A stretch of DNA of 50,838 nucleotides. Origin: Minisyncoccota bacterium. GTDB taxonomy: Bacteria > Patescibacteriota > Minisyncoccia > Phycocordibacterales > UBA9973. The translations under genes were made by a program, and so were the position numbers. Each line of letters starts with the position of its first letter. Within the stretch, counting starts at the first letter, position 1. Positions 6,101 through 50,838 of this stretch are shown piece by piece. Where the stretch lies: positions 1-50,838 of the forward strand of contig JAYSVN010000023.1 in the NCBI GenBank assembly GCA_043718505.1, written 5' to 3'. The notes under the pieces were generated by a model. The model saw only the letters and a list, made by a program, of their open reading frames with translations. It made no database searches and had not been told where the DNA came from.

Positions 6101-7153
6101 ATGTCAAGAGATTCAAATACTGATAATCAAACTAATGAAGGGTTTAAAAAACCGGCTGATGACGGTTTTCTTGACGTTACTCTTCGCCCCGCGAAATGGG
6201 AAGAATACATCGGACAAGGTCACATCAAGGAAAATCTCCGCATTTTACTTGATGCCGCGCGTGAGCGTGGCCATACAGCTGAGCATATTCTCTTTTATGG
6301 TCCGCCGGGTCTTGGAAAAACCACACTCGCCCATCTCATTGCCAAAGAAACTGGTAGAAATATCCGTGTGACATCTGGTCCGGCAATTGAACGTGTCGGT
6401 GATCTGGCTTCTATTCTCACCAACCTTACACCTGGTGACATTTTATTTATCGATGAAATCCATCGCCTCAATAAATTAATTGAAGAGGTTCTCTACCCTG
6501 CCATGGAAGGCGGCACACTCGACATTATCATCGGCAAAGGTCCTTCGGCTCGTACAATTCAGCTTGAGCTTCCGCCTTTTACACTCATCGCCGCCACAAC
6601 TCGTATTTCCCTCTTGTCTGCGCCACTTCGTTCACGTTTTTCCGGCGGCACGTTTCGTCTTGAATACTACACACCGGAAGAAATTGAGAAAATCATTGAA
6701 CGTTCAGCGAAAATTTTGGAAATTGAGCTCAACAACGATGCCCGTAGTGAAATTGCCAAGAGAAGCCGCCGCACCCCTCGTACTGCCAACTACTTTCTTA
6801 AGCGTGTCCGTGACTATGCCCAAGTTCACAAAACCGATGCCGGTGGTGATGCTGCTAAGAAAGCTCTTGCGCTTCTTGGTGTTGATGAATATGGTCTTGG
6901 TCAAACAGACAGGCAGCTTTTAGAAGTTCTTATAGAAAAATTTAACGGCGGACCGGTTGGCGTCAAAACCCTTGCCGCAGCCACCAGTGAAGAAGAAGGT
7001 ACTATTGAAGAAGTTATTGAACCATACTTATTACAAATTGGTTTCCTTGAGCGCACTCCGCGCGGCCGCACCGCCACCAAGCGCGCGTACGACCATCTCG
7101 GTTTTGAATATAAAGAAGAAAATAACGAGCCTAAGCAAGATACTCTTATATAA
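6101..7153 (+). CDS. ruvB: Holliday junction branch-migration helicase RuvB. I place the start at the internal ATG 6101 rather than the ORF-track GTG 6014.
   Basis: LRPAKWEEYIGQ, Walker A GPPGLGKTTLA and Walker B ILFIDEIHRL. The N-terminal 29 aa of the track ORF are hydrophobic and overlap the DnaA-box region. Confidence 0.92.
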   Translation: MSRDSNTDNQTNEGFKKPADDGFLDVTLRPAKWEEYIGQGHIKENLRILLDAARERGHTAEHILFYGPPGLGKTTLAHLIAKETGRNIRVTSGPAIERVGDLASILTNLTPGDILFIDEIHRLNKLIEEVLYPAMEGGTLDIIIGKGPSARTIQLELPPFTLIAATTRISLLSAPLRSRFSGGTFRLEYYTPEEIEKIIERSAKILEIELNNDARSEIAKRSRRTPRTANYFLKRVRDYAQVHKTDAGGDAAKKALALLGVDEYGLGQTDRQLLEVLIEKFNGGPVGVKTLAAATSEEEGTIEEVIEPYLLQIGFLERTPRGRTATKRAYDHLGFEYKEENNEPKQDTLI

Positions 7154-47967: not shown

Positions 47968-48828
47968 TCAGCTCTTCACCAAAAAGTATTTCTTAAACAC
48001 TTTCTTCAGTTTCTCCGCCTTCCTTCTATTTTTTGAAATGACAAACTTGTTTCTGCCTCTTTTTTCAAATATCTTCTTTATTCTTTCTTTCGCGTTTTCG
48101 TCGAACTCTTTTGTTTCTTTGTAAAATTTATCTACTTCATCGGACGTTGTCGTATCCAACCAGACCTCAATTATGTAATCATCGAAAATATTCAAATAGT
48201 AATTGTTTTTGCCAAAGAGAAGCTGGTCATTCGCATAATATTGACTCAAATCATTATCAAATTCTTTGTGTATCCAGATATCGAGCGGATCTCTATTGCC
48301 ACTGATGAGGAAAAGTTGCTTCCCTTTGTTTCTGACTTCGTCAAAGAGGTGACGCTCGCTTTCGTAACGAATGAGCATAAACCATTCATGCGGATTATAG
48401 AGGTAAGCCGGCTCACTTACTTTTGTAGCATCAGTAAGAATGCCGAAAGCATGGCCCCAGAACATATCGGTTTGGACCGGGTTTTTAAACGTGTACGAGA
48501 TTCTGTCCCCGTCTTCCATTTGCAGGAAATCTTCACCTTGCATTTCATTGCCATAGTATCTTTCGGCAGTGGCAAAATATTCAGTCATTTTATTGATCCA
48601 AATATGGGAAAGCGAGACCTGCTTACTGCGCATGACGACCACCTCTTCCTTTTTAAGCTTGCGGAGAGCTTGGTATAAGGCTTGTTTAGTTGTGCCAGGT
48701 CGGTTGGCCTGGGTTTTCGCTAGAAGGTCAGCTGTACCCAAAGAACCTTTCTGAATGAAGCCAAGGATGTGTTCTTCAACTGTTTTTGGCTGGAATAGCA
48801 CCCATTCAAAGTAGCATAGGATGGTCAA
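47968..48828 (-). CDS. Putative winged-helix DNA-binding protein, about 277-286 aa, with an uncharacterised C-terminal domain. The start is uncertain and may be GTG 48801.
   Basis: The wHTH-like segment is GTADLLAKTQANRPGTTKQALYQALRKLKKEEVVVMRSKQVSLS. The gene is divergent from the operator-bearing genes. Confidence 0.45.
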   Translation of the reverse strand: MTILCYFEWVLFQPKTVEEHILGFIQKGSLGTADLLAKTQANRPGTTKQALYQALRKLKKEEVVVMRSKQVSLSHIWINKMTEYFATAERYYGNEMQGEDFLQMEDGDRISYTFKNPVQTDMFWGHAFGILTDATKVSEPAYLYNPHEWFMLIRYESERHLFDEVRNKGKQLFLISGNRDPLDIWIHKEFDNDLSQYYANDQLLFGKNNYYLNIFDDYIIEVWLDTTTSDEVDKFYKETKEFDENAKERIKKIFEKRGRNKFVISKNRRKAEKLKKVFKKYFLVKS

Positions 48829-48935
48829 AAAGTAAACAATATAATTACTTTTATAATATAAAACCCTTATAATTAGACAAATAGTGAAATAGATGTCATA
48901 ATATGCCTAAGAAATGATCTATACAACTTTAGTTC

Positions 48936-48966
48936 TTGTGGGTCTCAGCTGAACCCATAAAAACTA
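48936..48966 (+). promoter_or_regulatory. Copy 1 of a 31-nt conserved promoter/operator element containing a 19-nt dyad
   Basis: TTGTGGGTCTCAGCTGAACCCATAAAAACTA ends 5 nt before ATG 48972. The dyad is TGGGT(c)TCAG|CTGAACCCA. Confidence 0.6.
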
Positions 48967-48971
48967 AAAAT

Positions 48972-49757
48972 ATGAAAAATACACTAATAATCGTTGCTGG
49001 CGCAGCTGGTGAAATAGGTACTCAATACTGCAAAGAAATTACAGAAAACGGTATCGAGTGCATTGGAGTAATCAGAAATAAGCCTCTTGAGCTTAGTTCT
49101 CCCCTATTAACCACAATAACTTGCCACCTTAATGATGAGAAATCAATCATCGATACATTCTCTAGTCTCGATTTCAGTAAGTATAAGAAAATAATTTACT
49201 TGCATACGATCGGTGTCGACAAGTTCGACCCACGCGGATATCCAAACATTAAGCCAATGGAAACTATCCCGGCCGAAATATATGATACCAACGTAAATTC
49301 ATTCAAGTATTTACTCAGATACTGTGTCTCTCGAATTAACTTTATCAATCAGGGTAGAACAAAAAAAGATAAAGTTAAGTTCAAGATTGCCATAGTAGCT
49401 GGTGCTGCCGACAAGCATACACCATTCGTGATTGAATCATTCTGCGAAGCCAAATTTATTCTGAAGCAGTACATTCAATCATGCATTGGATTGTATCCAA
49501 GTTGGGTATCAGGACTCTCAATCAACATTAGTTCAACCATCACGAAGGCGGCACTCAGTGTGCGACCCAACGCCGATACAACCTACTGGTTGGAACCCAG
49601 AGAAGTTGTAGTTCAGTCGTTTGATCAATTAGTTTCTCAAACACGTCGTTATGCAGAAATTAATATTATCAAAAAGTCCCCAGACTTCTTTACGGGATAC
49701 TATGACTGCAATAAAGCTCTGTACGAAAAGTGGAGTAAGGAGACAGGGATAAAGTAA
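48972..49757 (+). CDS. Rossmann-fold NAD(P)-binding, SDR-like protein, apparently lacking the canonical Ser/Tyr catalytic residues. The start is moved to ATG 48972.
   Basis: MKNTLIIVAGAAGEIGTQY carries a GxxGxxG-like dinucleotide motif. The region expected to hold YxxxK reads FCEAK. Confidence 0.6.
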   Translation: MKNTLIIVAGAAGEIGTQYCKEITENGIECIGVIRNKPLELSSPLLTTITCHLNDEKSIIDTFSSLDFSKYKKIIYLHTIGVDKFDPRGYPNIKPMETIPAEIYDTNVNSFKYLLRYCVSRINFINQGRTKKDKVKFKIAIVAGAADKHTPFVIESFCEAKFILKQYIQSCIGLYPSWVSGLSINISSTITKAALSVRPNADTTYWLEPREVVVQSFDQLVSQTRRYAEINIIKKSPDFFTGYYDCNKALYEKWSKETGIK

Positions 49758-49776
49758 TTAAGTACAAAAAGGAAAA

Positions 49777-49810
49777 GGGCGAGCCTAATAGTAAAATTCG
49801 CCCACATTTT
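49777..49810 (+). terminator. Weak candidate terminator after the SDR-like gene
   Basis: gggcga (49777-49782) pairs with tcgccc (49798-49803), leaving a 15-nt loop, followed by acatttt. Confidence 0.35.
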
Positions 49811-49871
49811 AGAGCTCATCAATGCCGGTGGTCTCTAAATGAAATTGTTCATTCACATAGATATATAAATT

Positions 49872-49902
49872 TTGTGGGTCTCGATCGAACCCATAAAAAC
49901 TA
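49872..49902 (+). promoter_or_regulatory. Copy 2 of the 31-nt promoter/operator element
   Basis: TTGTGGGTCTCGATCGAACCCATAAAAACTA ends 5 nt before ATG 49908. It is 27/31 identical to copy 1, and all 4 differences lie in the dyad centre and preserve its symmetry. Confidence 0.6.
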
Positions 49903-49907
49903 TATAA

Positions 49908-50838
49908 ATGAAAACAAAAAAATCAGTACATGTCTTCTACAGAAGAGAATTTGAGCAAAGTAAAAAACTTTACTCGTCACCAAAAGAAACCGAGTATCTA
50001 ATCAAAGATGCAAAAAGACTTCTGGGAAAATTACCCGCTGGAATTGTCTACGACGTAGGCACTGGTACAGGTATTGTCGGCTTAACGATTGCTCTCGAGA
50101 CAAAGAGAAAAGTAATTGGAGTCGATATCGATAATTTCGCAGTTAAACTTTCAAATAAGAATGCCAGCCTGCATAAGGCGACAAAAGTTTTTTCGGCGAT
50201 AAACTCAGATTACCTAAGTGCGCTCAGCGAAGCACCTGCTCTCATTGTTGCTTGTTTGCCGTGGGGATCTAATGAATATCTTCTCGAGTCAAACAAAAAT
50301 AGAGATTTGGGGAGTATTCCTCATAAAATGCTTTTTCCCGCCAATGGTCCAATGGGAAGCTACAAGCAACTCATTAAGCAAATTGTTGCTAAAGGCTGGA
50401 GTACATCTCTCTTAATAGAAACCGGATGTATGCCAGAAAAGTTAGTTCGGCAAGAGATTCGAAAAGTCGCGAAGCATGCAAGGATTATATTTAAGCAACA
50501 TTCAAAGTCGTATGCAACAGCTTTGATACAGTTTAAAGACCAACCGATTAATAAAAAAATGAAATGGAAAAACCTTGCGCCAAAACTTTGTAGGCAGAGA
50601 GTCCAAATCGAATGCAATATTGATCGACTTGTGGGTAGAGCTGAAATTAAAGACTACATGGTTAAGCTCTCGGAAGTTACCAGAATGCATGTTTTACAAG
50701 AACCATTTACCCATCCTGCGATTAAAAATAATCGTTTAGCTGGATACGGTGGTTGGATACATTGGGTTACTTCAGGTTGCTCAGTGTATTCATATAATAA
50801 GAAGTGGACCAAAAATGGTCACTACTTTCTTACCGTCG
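49908..50838 (+). CDS. Class I SAM-dependent methyltransferase-fold protein continuing into an unknown C-terminal region. It is open to the right edge, at least 310 aa, and absent from the ORF track.
   Basis: My codon-by-codon translation finds no stop from 49908 to 50837. Motif I is VYDVGTGTGIVGL, the post-I acidic motif is VIGVDID, and ALIVACLPWG sits at the motif IV position. Confidence 0.7.
   Translation, partial: MKTKKSVHVFYRREFEQSKKLYSSPKETEYLIKDAKRLLGKLPAGIVYDVGTGTGIVGLTIALETKRKVIGVDIDNFAVKLSNKNASLHKATKVFSAINSDYLSALSEAPALIVACLPWGSNEYLLESNKNRDLGSIPHKMLFPANGPMGSYKQLIKQIVAKGWSTSLLIETGCMPEKLVRQEIRKVAKHARIIFKQHSKSYATALIQFKDQPINKKMKWKNLAPKLCRQRVQIECNIDRLVGRAEIKDYMVKLSEVTRMHVLQEPFTHPAIKNNRLAGYGGWIHWVTSGCSVYSYNKKWTKNGHYFLTV

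What the first reader, a model, noticed from the sequence alone, without database searches (positions are those of the whole stretch)
48936..50660. Duplicated 31-nt dyad-symmetric promoter/operator in front of two adjacent genes, with a degenerate third copy inside the coding sequence
**The two clear copies**
- TTGTGGGTCTC-AGCT-GAACCCATAAAAACTA (48936-48966) and TTGTGGGTCTC-GATC-GAACCCATAAAAACTA (49872-49902) each end 5 nt before an ATG.
- The two genes are the SDR-like gene and the methyltransferase-fold gene.
- Identity is 27/31. All four differences lie in the centre of the 19-nt dyad TGGGT(c)TC NNNN GAACCCA, and both centres (AGCT, GATC) are themselves palindromic.
- This is what is expected of a dimeric DNA-binding protein site, or of a hairpin whose loop is free to vary.

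**Promoter context**
- The element spans a plausible -35 (TTGTGG), the spacer and a -10 (TAAAAA, 8 nt from the ATG). A bound protein would therefore occlude the promoter.
- The divergently transcribed winged-helix protein (47968-48828) is the obvious candidate regulator.

**The possible third copy**
- A degenerate relic, TTGTGGGT-ag-AGCTGAA at 50629-50645, precedes an in-frame ATG at 50658. That is residue 251 of the methyltransferase ORF, where the MTase fold should end.
- This suggests an ancestral third cassette gene that fused to its upstream neighbour.
Basis: seen in the sequence. Interest (0 to 1): 0.62.

Follow-up and report, generated by a model that had tools for sequence, protein, structure and literature searches.

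The report
Conserved leader RNA hairpin, not operator
The 31-base element repeated in front of two neighbouring genes of an ultra-small Paceibacteria bacterium is most likely the top of a conserved RNA stem-loop in each messenger's leader that acts after transcription, not a promoter with a repressor site.

Summary
The two copies (48936-48966, 49872-49902) are real. They are 27/31 identical and are the only copies in the 742-kb genome.

Relatives do not support the promoter/operator reading:
- A canonical, conserved sigma-70 promoter (TAGACA-17-TGtCATAAT, 48874-48902) lies upstream of copy 1, so the dyad should be transcribed.
- The proposed -10 (TAAAAA) lacks the -7 T that this genome's many leaderless promoters carry.
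- The divergent regulator is TrmB-like. Its own conserved palindrome (AGTAAA-N7-TTTACT, 48829-48852) is a better operator candidate.

Evidence for an RNA hairpin:
- I collected 17 copies from 13 genomes in at least 6 genera. They sit before SDR-like, AdoMetDC-like and methyltransferase genes.
- In 15 aligned copies every helix position pairs, and 8 of 11 pairs show compensatory double changes.
- A G:U wobble and a one-base 5' bulge are invariant.
- Outer helices of unrelated sequence extend the stem to within 1-13 nt of the AUG.
- The sense strand folds better than the antisense strand in 15 of 17 copies.
- No Rfam family matches.

I read it as a new cis-acting leader stem-loop that covers the A-rich initiation region of a genome without Shine-Dalgarno sites.

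The "third copy" is coding sequence inside the AdoMetDC-like domain. That domain is nonetheless a separate gene in relatives. The always self-complementary apex is unexplained. No transcript data could be obtained.

The parts
47968..48801 (-). TrmB-like winged-helix regulator gene. The likely start is the GTG at 48801; the ORF is open up to the TTG at 48828.
   Evidence: It is 68% identical to the G005 orthologue, which starts at the equivalent GTG. The family occurs in 38 further loci. The AlphaFold model has pLDDT 87.9. The top Foldseek hits are TrmBL2 5bqt (E 1.7e-7) and TrmB 3qph (E 3.1e-5), and the C-terminal domain is PLD/Nuc-like.
48829..48852 (.). Palindrome AAAGTAAAC-N-TTACTTT next to the regulator's start. 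It is the better candidate operator of the TrmB-like protein.
   Evidence: AGTAAA-N5-11-TTTACT (one mismatch allowed per half) is found 16-58 nt from the regulator's start in about 33 of 39 loci, whatever gene lies downstream. It overlaps the predicted minus-strand promoter TTGTCT-16-TATTAT.
48874..48902 (+). Canonical sigma-70 promoter TAGACA-17-(TG)tCATAAT for the SDR-like gene.
   Evidence: It is the best promoter match in the region, 10 of 12 with an extended TG. It is conserved in G005, a Nomurabacteria genome, G020 (TTGACA-17-TGCATAAT) and most of the 38 loci. In L048 the same promoter abuts the ATG of the orthologous gene, making it leaderless.
48928..48968 (+). Leader stem-loop, copy 1. 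The core is 48936-48960 and the apex is AGCU. The outer helix is UUUAGUU/AACUAAA. The stem ends 3 nt before the AUG.
   Evidence: RNAfold gives -16.5 kcal/mol, z -3.6. Covariation is shown. The covariance model scores it 44.5 bits.
48972..49757 (+). SDR-like Rossmann gene (261 aa).
   Evidence: There are only weak N-terminal Pfam/NCBIfam hits. Orthologues are 51-82% identical. FCEAK replaces the SDR motif YxxxK (sequence).
49777..49810 (+). Conserved terminator-like hairpin GGGCGA...TCGCCC followed by ACATTTT, between the two genes.
   Evidence: It is conserved in G005 and G028 with a compensatory change (GGACGA/TCGTCC), and partly in L060. The simple scanner did not call it, because the loop is 15 nt and there are only 4 T.
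49862..49906 (+). Leader stem-loop, copy 2. The core is 49872-49896 and the apex is GAUC. The outer helix is UAUAUA/UAUAUA. The stem ends 1 nt before the AUG.
   Evidence: RNAfold z -3.8. The covariance model scores it 44.2 bits. The orthologous G005 copy keeps GAUC but has U:A at the pair that is G:C here.
49908..50558 (+). HemK/PrmC-like class I methyltransferase-fold domain of the fusion ORF.
   Evidence: Matches are Pfam MTS and PrmA and NCBIfam PrmC (E 2.8e-18, below the cut-off).
50559..50838 (+). AdoMetDC-like (DC) domain of the fusion ORF, cut by the contig end. ATG 50559 is the ancestral start of a once separate gene.
   Evidence: PF02675 matches residues 236-341 of the full-length 342-aa G005 orthologue (E 7.5e-5, below the cut-off). 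Stand-alone genes of 123-135 aa starting M..W(K/R)NLAP.L.RQR occur in L050, L060, L042, L044, L074 and L065.
50629..50645 (+). It is coding sequence (LVGRAE) inside the DC domain and is not an element.
   Evidence: It has no right arm, and there is no covariance-model hit up to E = 1. It lies 70 nt downstream of the DC domain's start. The Met at 50658 aligns with a non-conserved Leu in the stand-alone homologue.

Best explanation
Each 31-mer is the upper part of an RNA stem-loop of about 41-45 nt, with 17-18 predicted pairs here (17-24 across all copies), encoded in the 5' leader of its gene. The structure is:
- an AU-rich outer helix;
- an inner helix 5'-UUGUNGGU/ACCN'AUAA-3' with an invariant G:U;
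- a single bulged base on the 5' arm;
- two more pairs;
- a four-base apex.

It works in cis on the mRNA. The genome has no Shine-Dalgarno sites and depends on leaderless starts or on open A-rich leaders. The 3' strand of the stem is the A-rich tract itself and ends 1-3 nt before the AUG in this window. Folding should therefore limit ribosome access and/or set the stability or processing of the mRNA. The invariant G:U, bulge and apex are the likely handle for a trans-acting factor, probably a protein.

Because the same element precedes two genes here, and SDR-like, AdoMetDC-like and methyltransferase genes in relatives, it would co-ordinate these genes after transcription. Transcription of the cassette is probably governed separately, by the TrmB-like protein at its own palindrome.

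Shown: the sequence, the covariation, the strand bias, the position relative to a predicted conserved promoter, the absence of Shine-Dalgarno sites, and the gene association.

Inferred: that the element is transcribed, that it affects translation or stability, and that a factor binds it.
For: **Covariation**
- In 15 distinct copies, 165 of 165 cells pair, 8 of 11 pairs have changes on both sides, and 0 of 500 shuffles reach the score. Partners slid by 1-3 columns pair in only 33-38% of cells.
- The same holds in the 10 copies found without any RNA model.
- The only one-sided changes create G:U (U:A to U:G, G:C to G:U). None creates A:C. G:U at pair 3:23 is invariant.

**Outer helices and strand**
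- The outer helices differ completely in sequence between copies and classes but always pair.
- The sense strand is more stable than the antisense strand in 15 of 17 copies (mean -3.7 kcal/mol, Wilcoxon p 0.0007; the copies are related).
- All copies have the same orientation to the downstream gene and lie 10-25 nt (core) from its ATG, before at least 5 gene families.

**Promoter and translation context**
- A conserved canonical promoter lies upstream of copy 1 and of the class B and C leaders.
- The genome lacks Shine-Dalgarno sites (3% against 5-8% in control windows), and TAnnnT lies 6 nt before the ATG in 92 long ORFs against about 19 expected.
- Species with many genes lacking Shine-Dalgarno sites show the strongest nucleotide biases expected to prevent secondary structure around the start codon (PMC5397173, abstract).

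**Distribution**
- The covariance model finds the element in 12 of 251 family genomes (6 genera), with at most 2 copies per genome.
Against: - There are no transcript data.
- No promoter could be assigned to copy 2, which follows a terminator-like hairpin.
- Many orthologues of the SDR-like gene have no such hairpin (L048, L049, L053, L064 and 16 metagenome loci whose leaders could be read), so it is not essential for these genes.
- The apex is a self-complementary tetranucleotide in every copy (AGCU, GAUC, GGCC, UGCA, and CUAG in class C). A simple hairpin loop does not require this, and it is what a symmetric DNA site would show.
- In class B, 7-13 nt of A-rich leader stay unpaired, so occlusion of the start region may be partial.
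- The copies are phylogenetically related, so the statistics overstate independence. Five of the 15 aligned copies were found with a model that contains the structure.
Confidence: 0.6

Rival explanations
1. The element is a sigma-70 promoter (-35 TTGTGG, 16-nt spacer, -10 TAAAAA) for a leaderless or nearly leaderless mRNA. Its dyad is the operator of a dimeric repressor, the divergent winged-helix protein.
For: - The geometry fits the genome's habit. -10 boxes lie 6-9 nt before many ATGs, and TAAAAA lies 7-10 nt before the four ATGs.
- G028 has TTGTTG-16-TAAATT 8 nt before its ATG.
- No other promoter is evident for copy 2, which follows a terminator-like hairpin.
- The apex is palindromic in all copies.
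- The neighbour is a TrmB-type DNA-binding protein.
Against: - TAAAAA lacks the -7 T in 4 of 5 class A copies, and the scan does not call these sites.
- Class B homologues have no such hexamers.
- Copy 1 has a strong conserved promoter upstream.
- The bases of the 'half-sites' differ between the two sites of one genome, yet stay complementary.
- The invariant G:T and the one-sided bulge break the symmetry in a fixed orientation.
- The regulator's own palindrome is elsewhere and travels with the gene.
Confidence: 0.12
2. The stem-loop is an RNase III (or other double-strand endonuclease) processing site. Cleavage would cut leadered or polycistronic transcripts just upstream of each AUG, giving short-leader mRNAs that a ribosome lacking Shine-Dalgarno recognition and preferring leaderless starts can use. 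It could also control mRNA half-life. This is a sub-model of the RNA reading.
For: - The stems have 17-24 pairs with internal loops, and their base lies 1-13 nt from the AUG.
- One copy sits between two cistrons.
- The genome encodes RNase III and favours leaderless starts.
Against: - RNase III does not explain the conserved inner sequence, the G:U, the bulge or the apex.
- No cleavage data exist.
- The helices are at the short end for RNase III (my own knowledge: about two helical turns are preferred).
Confidence: 0.12
3. It is a small ligand-sensing RNA (a riboswitch-like hairpin with an A-rich tail) that reports a SAM-related or other metabolite to the enzymes it precedes.
For: - The downstream genes form a coherent SAM-related set: methyltransferases, an AdoMetDC-like protein and a Rossmann protein.
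- From memory, the sequence resembles preQ1-I aptamers: UGGGUC.CAG..AACCC followed by an A-rich tail.
- A self-complementary apex could allow loop-loop pairing, as in guanidine-II (my own knowledge).
Against: - No Rfam family, including the preQ1 classes, matches at E up to 10 or up to 1 in relatives.
- The A-rich tail is paired with an upstream U-rich strand.
- No loop-tail complementarity is available for a pseudoknot (by inspection of the sequence).
- The internal loops vary in sequence and length, which argues against a conserved pocket.
Confidence: 0.05
4. It is a DNA-level hairpin or cruciform element: a recombination or mobility site of the attC/REP kind that moves gene cassettes, or a palindrome kept symmetric by template switching without any function.
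For: - The element precedes different gene families in different genomes, and the cassette content varies.
- A bulged imperfect palindrome with fixed strand asymmetry is what folded single-stranded attC sites look like (my own knowledge).
- The apex is fully palindromic.
Against: - There are at most 2 copies per genome.
- It always lies 10-25 nt upstream of a start codon, in the sense orientation.
- No integrase or transposase is seen next to it in the window.
- Template switching would erase the bulge and the G:T, but they are invariant.
Confidence: 0.04

Closest known systems
Protein-bound translational operator hairpins (for example the MS2/R17 and PP7 coat-protein operators at the replicase start) - own knowledge
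   Same: Both are short stem-loops with a single bulged base and a four-base apex, placed immediately upstream of or at a start codon. Identity elements are a few fixed bases plus shape. The rest of the stem is free to covary.
   Different: - This stem is longer (17-24 pairs).
- There is no Shine-Dalgarno site to hide.
- The binding protein is unknown.
- The apex is always self-complementary.
- The element is chromosomal, in Paceibacteria, and is used for 2 or more genes of one cassette.
RNA thermometers and other start-region occluding leader hairpins (fourU, ROSE) - own knowledge; ROSE is described in PMC9016746
   Same: Both are leader hairpins whose 3' strand covers the ribosome landing region. 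Weak AU/GU pairs, a bulge and internal loops lie near the base.
   Different: - Known thermometers pair with a Shine-Dalgarno sequence. Here an A-rich tract is paired, in a genome without Shine-Dalgarno use.
- The GC-rich top is strongly conserved in sequence, which a pure thermometer does not need.
- No temperature data exist.
RNase III processing stems (phage T7 R1.1-type sites, rnc/pnp leaders) - own knowledge
   Same: Both are imperfect hairpins of about 20 pairs in leaders and between cistrons. The host encodes RNase III.
   Different: The conserved apex, G:U and bulge are not RNase III determinants, and cleavage has not been shown.
preQ1-I riboswitch (Rfam RF00522)
   Same: From memory, both have a small hairpin with the motif GGGUC.CAG..AACCC followed by an A-rich tail close to the start codon.
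   Different: - The covariance model gives no match.
- The tail is paired with an upstream strand and not docked.
- There is no P2 complementarity.
- The downstream genes are not queuosine genes.
TrmB-family regulators and their palindromic operators
   Same: The divergent gene has the TrmB/TrmBL2 architecture: a winged helix, a long helix and a PLD-like effector domain. It is accompanied by a 6-N7-6 palindrome, as TrmB proteins are (own knowledge: TGM-type sites).

   Different: The palindrome that travels with the gene is AGTAAA-N7-TTTACT at 48829-48852, not the GGGTCTC dyad. Binding has not been tested.
CUUG-type tetraloops
   Same: In the CUUG loop the first and fourth bases form a Watson-Crick-like pair over a two-base turn (PMC10401711). 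That would explain the covariation of apex positions 1 and 4 here (G:C, A:U, U:A, C:G).
   Different: The apex sequences here (GGCC, AGCU, GAUC, UGCA, CUAG) are not CUUG. The two inner bases are also mutually complementary. No structure is known for these loops.

Membership tests
   The genome consensus is TGnTAnnnT, 6-9 nt before the ATG. TAAAAA has A at position 6 in the window and in G005. The promoter scan does not list either site. Only G028 has TAAATT.
   Class B copies have TAGTGT and (C)ATTAC at those positions and lie 19-25 nt from the ATG.
Operator of a dimeric DNA-binding protein | Half-site bases are conserved between the sites that one protein must read. | tested here: not met
   The two G005 sites have A:T and T:A where the window has G:C. 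The centres differ (AGCT, GATC). Only complementarity is kept.
Operator of a dimeric DNA-binding protein | Two-fold symmetry with no required orientation. | tested here: not met
   The G:T at 3:23 and the 1-nt bulge on the 5' arm are invariant in 15 aligned copies. All copies face the downstream gene in the same way.
Operator of a dimeric DNA-binding protein | The site co-occurs with the candidate regulator gene. | tested here: inconclusive
   Several hairpins are in cassettes headed by the TrmB-like gene. However, only about a third of the 39 regulator loci have any leader hairpin, whereas AGTAAA-N7-TTTACT is present in about 33 of 39.
Structured cis-regulatory RNA | Compensatory base changes keep a helix, with G:U tolerated and A:C not. 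| tested here: met
   100% of cells pair, 8 of 11 pairs have double changes, and 0 of 500 shuffles reach the score. The slid controls pair in 33-38% of cells. One-sided changes lead only to G:U. The sense strand is more stable than the antisense strand in 15 of 17 copies.
Structured cis-regulatory RNA | The element is present in the transcript. | not testable with these tools
Any described RNA family (Rfam 15) | A covariance-model match. | tested here: not met
   There is no match at the gathering score in the window. Nothing overlaps the elements at E up to 10, or at E up to 1 in 8 related loci.
Intrinsic terminator | A GC-rich hairpin followed by a U run. | tested here: not met
   The hairpin is followed by AUAAAAAC on the plus strand and CAAGAAC on the minus strand. 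It is not called by the scan.
Dispersed repeat (REP/MITE) | Many copies at unrelated positions. | tested here: not met
   There are 2 copies in this genome and at most 2 per genome in 251 relatives. All are just upstream of start codons.
preQ1-I riboswitch | An H-type pseudoknot (loop-tail P2), a free A-rich tail, and queuosine gene context. | tested here: not met
   There is no RF00522 hit. The tail is paired with an upstream strand. The downstream genes are SDR-like, methyltransferase and AdoMetDC-like.
RNase III substrate | An imperfect double helix of about 20 pairs, and the enzyme present. | tested here: inconclusive
   17-24 pairs are predicted, and an rnc gene is present. Cleavage cannot be tested here.
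TrmB family (divergent regulator) | An N-terminal winged helix, a long helix and a C-terminal PLD-like effector domain. | tested here: met
   The model has pLDDT 87.9. Foldseek hits are TrmBL2 at 1.7e-7 and TrmB at 3.1e-5, with Nuc/NucT/Zucchini for the C-terminal part. Pfam TrmB itself does not match.
AdoMetDC (PF02675) for the C-terminal domain | A profile match over the domain, and the self-cleaving Glu-Ser site. | tested here: inconclusive
   PF02675 gives E 7.5e-5 and 23.5 bits against a cut-off of 25, covering profile positions 8-103 of 107. TSG(C/A)S stands where ES is expected, by my own alignment by eye. No PDB sequence relative was found.

The most novel reading that the evidence does not exclude
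The element is a new class of regulatory RNA whose function requires a fully self-complementary apex. One option is that two leaders (or a leader and a partner) pair apex to apex, or switch to an extended duplex, possibly on binding a SAM-related ligand as in guanidine-II. Another is that the same sequence is read twice: as a symmetric or methylatable DNA site and as an RNA hairpin. In a bacterium that lacks Shine-Dalgarno recognition, this would be a previously unseen way of gating translation of a set of SAM-using enzymes.
Probability: 0.1. Interest if true: 0.8.

Novelty: new variant of a known kind. Interest (0 to 1): 0.5.

Why it matters
**Regulation in Patescibacteria.** Little is known about how these organisms regulate genes, and I found no cis-regulatory RNA reported for Paceibacteria. 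A full-text search for 'Paceibacteria' with 'riboswitch' returned nothing, and Rfam has no match. This gives a compact, well-covarying RNA candidate with clear identity elements: the G:U, the bulge and the apex.

**Translation context.** The element sits in a genome that uses no Shine-Dalgarno sites and has many leaderless genes. It offers a concrete test of how leadered mRNAs are controlled in such organisms.

**An uncharacterised gene cassette.** The element ties together an SDR-like protein without the catalytic Tyr, an AdoMetDC-like protein with no solved relative, and methyltransferases, under a TrmB-like regulator. These are therefore likely to work together.

**Annotation.** The two genes do not have the duplicated promoter/operator that was proposed. 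The regulator's likely operator is a different palindrome.

Tried and rejected
1. **Dispersed repeat or regulon in the genome.** Rejected. There are only 2 copies, and pattern hits in 401 relatives are at control level apart from G005 and G028.
2. **Known RNA families, including preQ1-I, which I suspected from memory.** No Rfam match.
3. **Intrinsic terminator on either strand.** There is no U run.
4. **Coding sequence.** An in-frame TTG at 48936 opens the ORF through copy 1, but the frame is not kept in G005, where the distance is 38 nt and a TAG intervenes.
5. **The third copy as a relic promoter.** Rejected, because it lies inside the DC domain.
6. **A relic of the dyad just upstream of the true fusion point (50520-50558).** Nothing convincing was found by eye.
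7. **A universal feature of the SDR-like gene.** Rejected. Of 19 metagenome loci, the leaders of 16 could be read, and these and several genome loci lack it.
8. **A promoter for copy 2.** Candidates such as TTGATA, conserved in L012 and L060, are degenerate in the window. It remains unassigned.
10. **PDB sequence relatives of the three proteins.** None was found.
11. **Earlier notes of this scan.** Nothing bears on the element.


Full report
**1. The observation**

The sequence contains TTGTGGGTCTC-AGCT-GAACCCATAAAAACTA at 48936-48966 and the same 31-mer with GATC at 49872-49902. Each ends 5 nt before an ATG. The similarity runs over 58 nt at 76%. The dyad occurs twice in the window. It occurs nowhere else in the window's genome (G000: 741,634 bp, 56 contigs, 41% GC, 96.6% complete), even with 3 mismatches allowed. 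The string TTGTGGGTAGAGCTGAA (50629-50645) and the in-frame ATG at 50658 (residue 251) are also there.

**2. The genes**

- The divergent gene (47968-48801, probable GTG start) has no Pfam match.
- A 29-sequence alignment of that gene's family gives a confident model (pLDDT 87.9).
- The best structural matches are TrmBL2 and TrmB. The C-terminal domain resembles PLD/Nuc nucleases. It is a TrmB-like winged-helix regulator.
- The first downstream gene is a Rossmann protein with only a weak SDR/epimerase N-terminal match.
- The second ORF runs off the contig end.
- Its full-length orthologue in a genome of the same genus (G005 = JAGOSA010000011, 342 aa) has a HemK/PrmA-like methyltransferase fold. 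This is followed by an AdoMetDC-like domain (PF02675, residues 236-341, E 7.5e-5, just below the cut-off).
- In relatives this domain ('DC') is a free-standing gene of 123-135 aa (L050, L060, L042, L044, L074, L065) or carries a membrane segment (L012, L101).
- Its start corresponds to the ATG at window 50559 (…KK-M-KWKNLAPKLCRQR).

The junction, however, is about 100 nt upstream of the proposed one, and the 'third copy' is codons LVGRAE inside the DC domain. The RNA model does not detect it.

**3. Where the promoter is**

The best sigma-70 match in the region is TAGACA-17-CATAAT with an extended TG, at 48874-48902 on the plus strand.

- It is conserved in G005, in a Nomurabacteria genome (L012), in G020 (TTGACA-17-TGCATAAT) and in most of 38 further loci that carry the regulator gene.
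- In L048 the same promoter abuts the ATG of the orthologous SDR-like gene.

Copy 1 therefore begins about 25 nt (outer stem) to 35 nt (core) downstream of the -10 box and should be transcribed.

The genome makes no use of Shine-Dalgarno sites (3% against 5-8% in control windows). About a quarter of its long ORFs look leaderless: TAnnnT ends exactly 6 nt before the ATG in 92 ORFs against a background of about 19, and the consensus is TGnTATAAT. But TAAAAA lacks the -7 T in four of five class A copies, and the homologous class B elements have nothing promoter-like at these positions.

**4. Relatives of the element**

*Class A (TTGTNGGT[C]TC-NNNN-GAACCN'ATAA)*
- G005 has both copies, in front of the same two genes. 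They are TTGTAGGTCTC-AGCT-GAACCTATAA and TTGTTGGTCTC-GATC-GAACCAATAA. The outer G:C of the window is replaced by A:T in one copy and T:A in the other.
- G028 has TTGTTGGTCTC-GGCC-GAACCAATAA before an SDR-like paralogue.

*Class B (TAGTGTG[A]TTC-GGCC-GAACACATTA)*
- It precedes SDR-like genes in L051, L055, L056 and L045, and a free DC gene in L060.

*Further copies from a covariance model*
- A model built from these ten copies finds the element in 12 of 251 genomes of the family, across 6 genera, with at most two per genome.
- The new copies precede two families of class I methyltransferases, an SDR-like gene and a membrane-anchored DC gene. One more was found in L054.

*Other hairpins at the same leader position*
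- Class C (L012, L042, L044) has a different hairpin at the same position, GGGG..GATTCTAGAATC..CCCC inside a 14-pair outer helix.
- L052, L054 and L075 have a GNRA-capped hairpin.

*Orthologues without it*
- Many SDR-like orthologues have no such hairpin.

**5. Evidence for a base-paired, strand-specific structure**

- On the ten copies found without any RNA model, all cells pair and 6 of 11 pairs show double changes.
- On 15 distinct copies, 165 of 165 cells pair and 8 of 11 pairs have changes on both sides. No shuffle out of 500 reaches the covariation score, and sliding the partners drops pairing to 33-38%.
- The two one-sided changes both give G:U.
- The pair 3:23 is G:U in every copy. The 5' arm always carries one extra base (C, A or U).
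- Folding shows that the core is extended by outer helices of unrelated sequence: UUUAGUU/AACUAAA in copy 1, UAUAUA/UAUAUA in copy 2, AGUUUUAGG/CCUAAAACU in class B.
- This gives 17-24 pairs. The 3' end of the stem lies 1-13 nt before the AUG, and 1-3 nt before it in this window.
- The sense strand folds better than the antisense strand in 15 of 17 copies (mean difference -3.7 kcal/mol).

All copies face the downstream gene in the same way. A symmetric protein site predicts neither covariation between sites of one genome, nor a fixed G:T, nor a fixed one-sided bulge.

**6. The regulator's own site**

A palindrome AGTAAA-N7-TTTACT lies 16-58 nt from the start of the regulator gene in about 33 of 39 loci, whatever lies downstream. 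In the window it is at 48829-48852 and overlaps the predicted minus-strand promoter. It is the better candidate operator.

**7. Mechanism**

I propose a cis-acting leader stem-loop.

- In a genome without Shine-Dalgarno sites, initiation on leadered mRNAs is expected to depend on an open start region. Genomes rich in genes without Shine-Dalgarno sites show the strongest nucleotide biases expected to prevent structure around the start codon (PMC5397173, abstract).
- Here the A-rich tract is locked in the stem. The element should therefore restrain initiation and/or define mRNA stability or processing. RNase III is encoded in the genome.
- The conserved top (G:U, bulge, apex) looks like a protein handle. 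The variable internal loops argue against a ligand pocket.

These functional steps are inferred.

**8. What remains odd**

- The four apex bases are self-complementary in every copy: AGCU, GAUC, GGCC, UGCA, and CUAG in class C. The adjacent pairs covary as well.
- A Watson-Crick pair between loop positions 1 and 4, as in the CUUG tetraloop (PMC10401711), would explain the outer two positions. The complementary inner dinucleotide is only weakly significant. Dimerisation through the apex, or an additional DNA-level role, is not excluded.
- The promoter for copy 2, which follows a conserved terminator-like hairpin (49777-49810), is unassigned.

**9. Comparison and novelty**

The element works like protein-bound translational operators, start-occluding leader hairpins or RNase III sites. 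It is not a member of any Rfam family, including preQ1-I, which it resembles superficially. It is not a terminator and not a dispersed repeat. I rate it a new variant of a known kind, a cis-regulatory leader hairpin. It is of moderate interest because of its host lineage, its setting without Shine-Dalgarno sites, its self-complementary apex and the uncharacterised SAM-related cassette it marks.

Noticed in passing
window 48829-48852: The palindrome AAAGTAAAC-N-TTACTTT abuts the start of the TrmB-like regulator gene. The same AGTAAA-N7-TTTACT motif is present in about 33 of 39 loci carrying this gene family. It is probably the regulator's (auto)operator.
   Followed up: partly
whole genome G000 (window = contig C16): There is no Shine-Dalgarno signal upstream of long ORFs (3% against 5-8% in control windows). 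There is a strong TAnnnT peak exactly 6 nt before the ATG (92 against about 19 expected). Roughly a quarter of the genes look leaderless, and the -10 consensus is TGnTATAAT.
   Followed up: partly
window 49777-49810: A terminator-like hairpin GGGCGA(15-nt loop)TCGCCC-ACATTTT lies between the two genes. It is conserved with its loop sequence in G005 and G028 (compensatory GGACGA/TCGTCC) and partly in L060. The downstream box AGCTCAT..GGTGG is conserved too. It could be more than a terminator.
   Followed up: partly
window 49908-50838; L009 6165-7193: The methyltransferase-fold plus AdoMetDC-like fusion occurs only in G000 and G005. The AdoMetDC-like protein is stand-alone elsewhere, has no PDB sequence relative, and has TSG(C/A)S where AdoMetDC has its self-cleaving ES. 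Its function is unknown.
   Followed up: partly
window 48972-49757: The SDR-like family has a conserved FCEAK where SDRs have the catalytic YxxxK. Its strongly conserved blocks (HTIGVDKFDPRGYP, NVNSFKYLL) are unlike those of known SDRs. It has no PDB sequence relative.
   Followed up: no
window 50629-50645 and L009 about 6888-6904: The coding 'third copy' shares 15 of 17 positions with copy 1. In G005 it carries the same position-5 variant (A) as G005 copy 1, through a synonymous change. I treated this as coincidence, but a long-range pairing with a hairpin 3' arm was not excluded.
   Followed up: partly
L045, L060, L101, L104, L106, L111, L054 (15-25 nt 5' of the hairpin): A conserved box GTWCWTTGAAA precedes the class B hairpins, both after promoters and inside operons. 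Its role is unknown.
   Followed up: no
L009 5925-6040: G005 carries a partial duplication of the 3' end of the SDR-like gene together with a degenerate copy of the terminator-like hairpin.
   Followed up: no
L009 7252-8016 and 8164-9294: In G005 the cassette is followed by a second regulator, which matches Pfam TrmB (E 3.3e-13), and by a PLP-dependent (PALP) enzyme gene. The corresponding part of G000 lies beyond the contig end.
   Followed up: no
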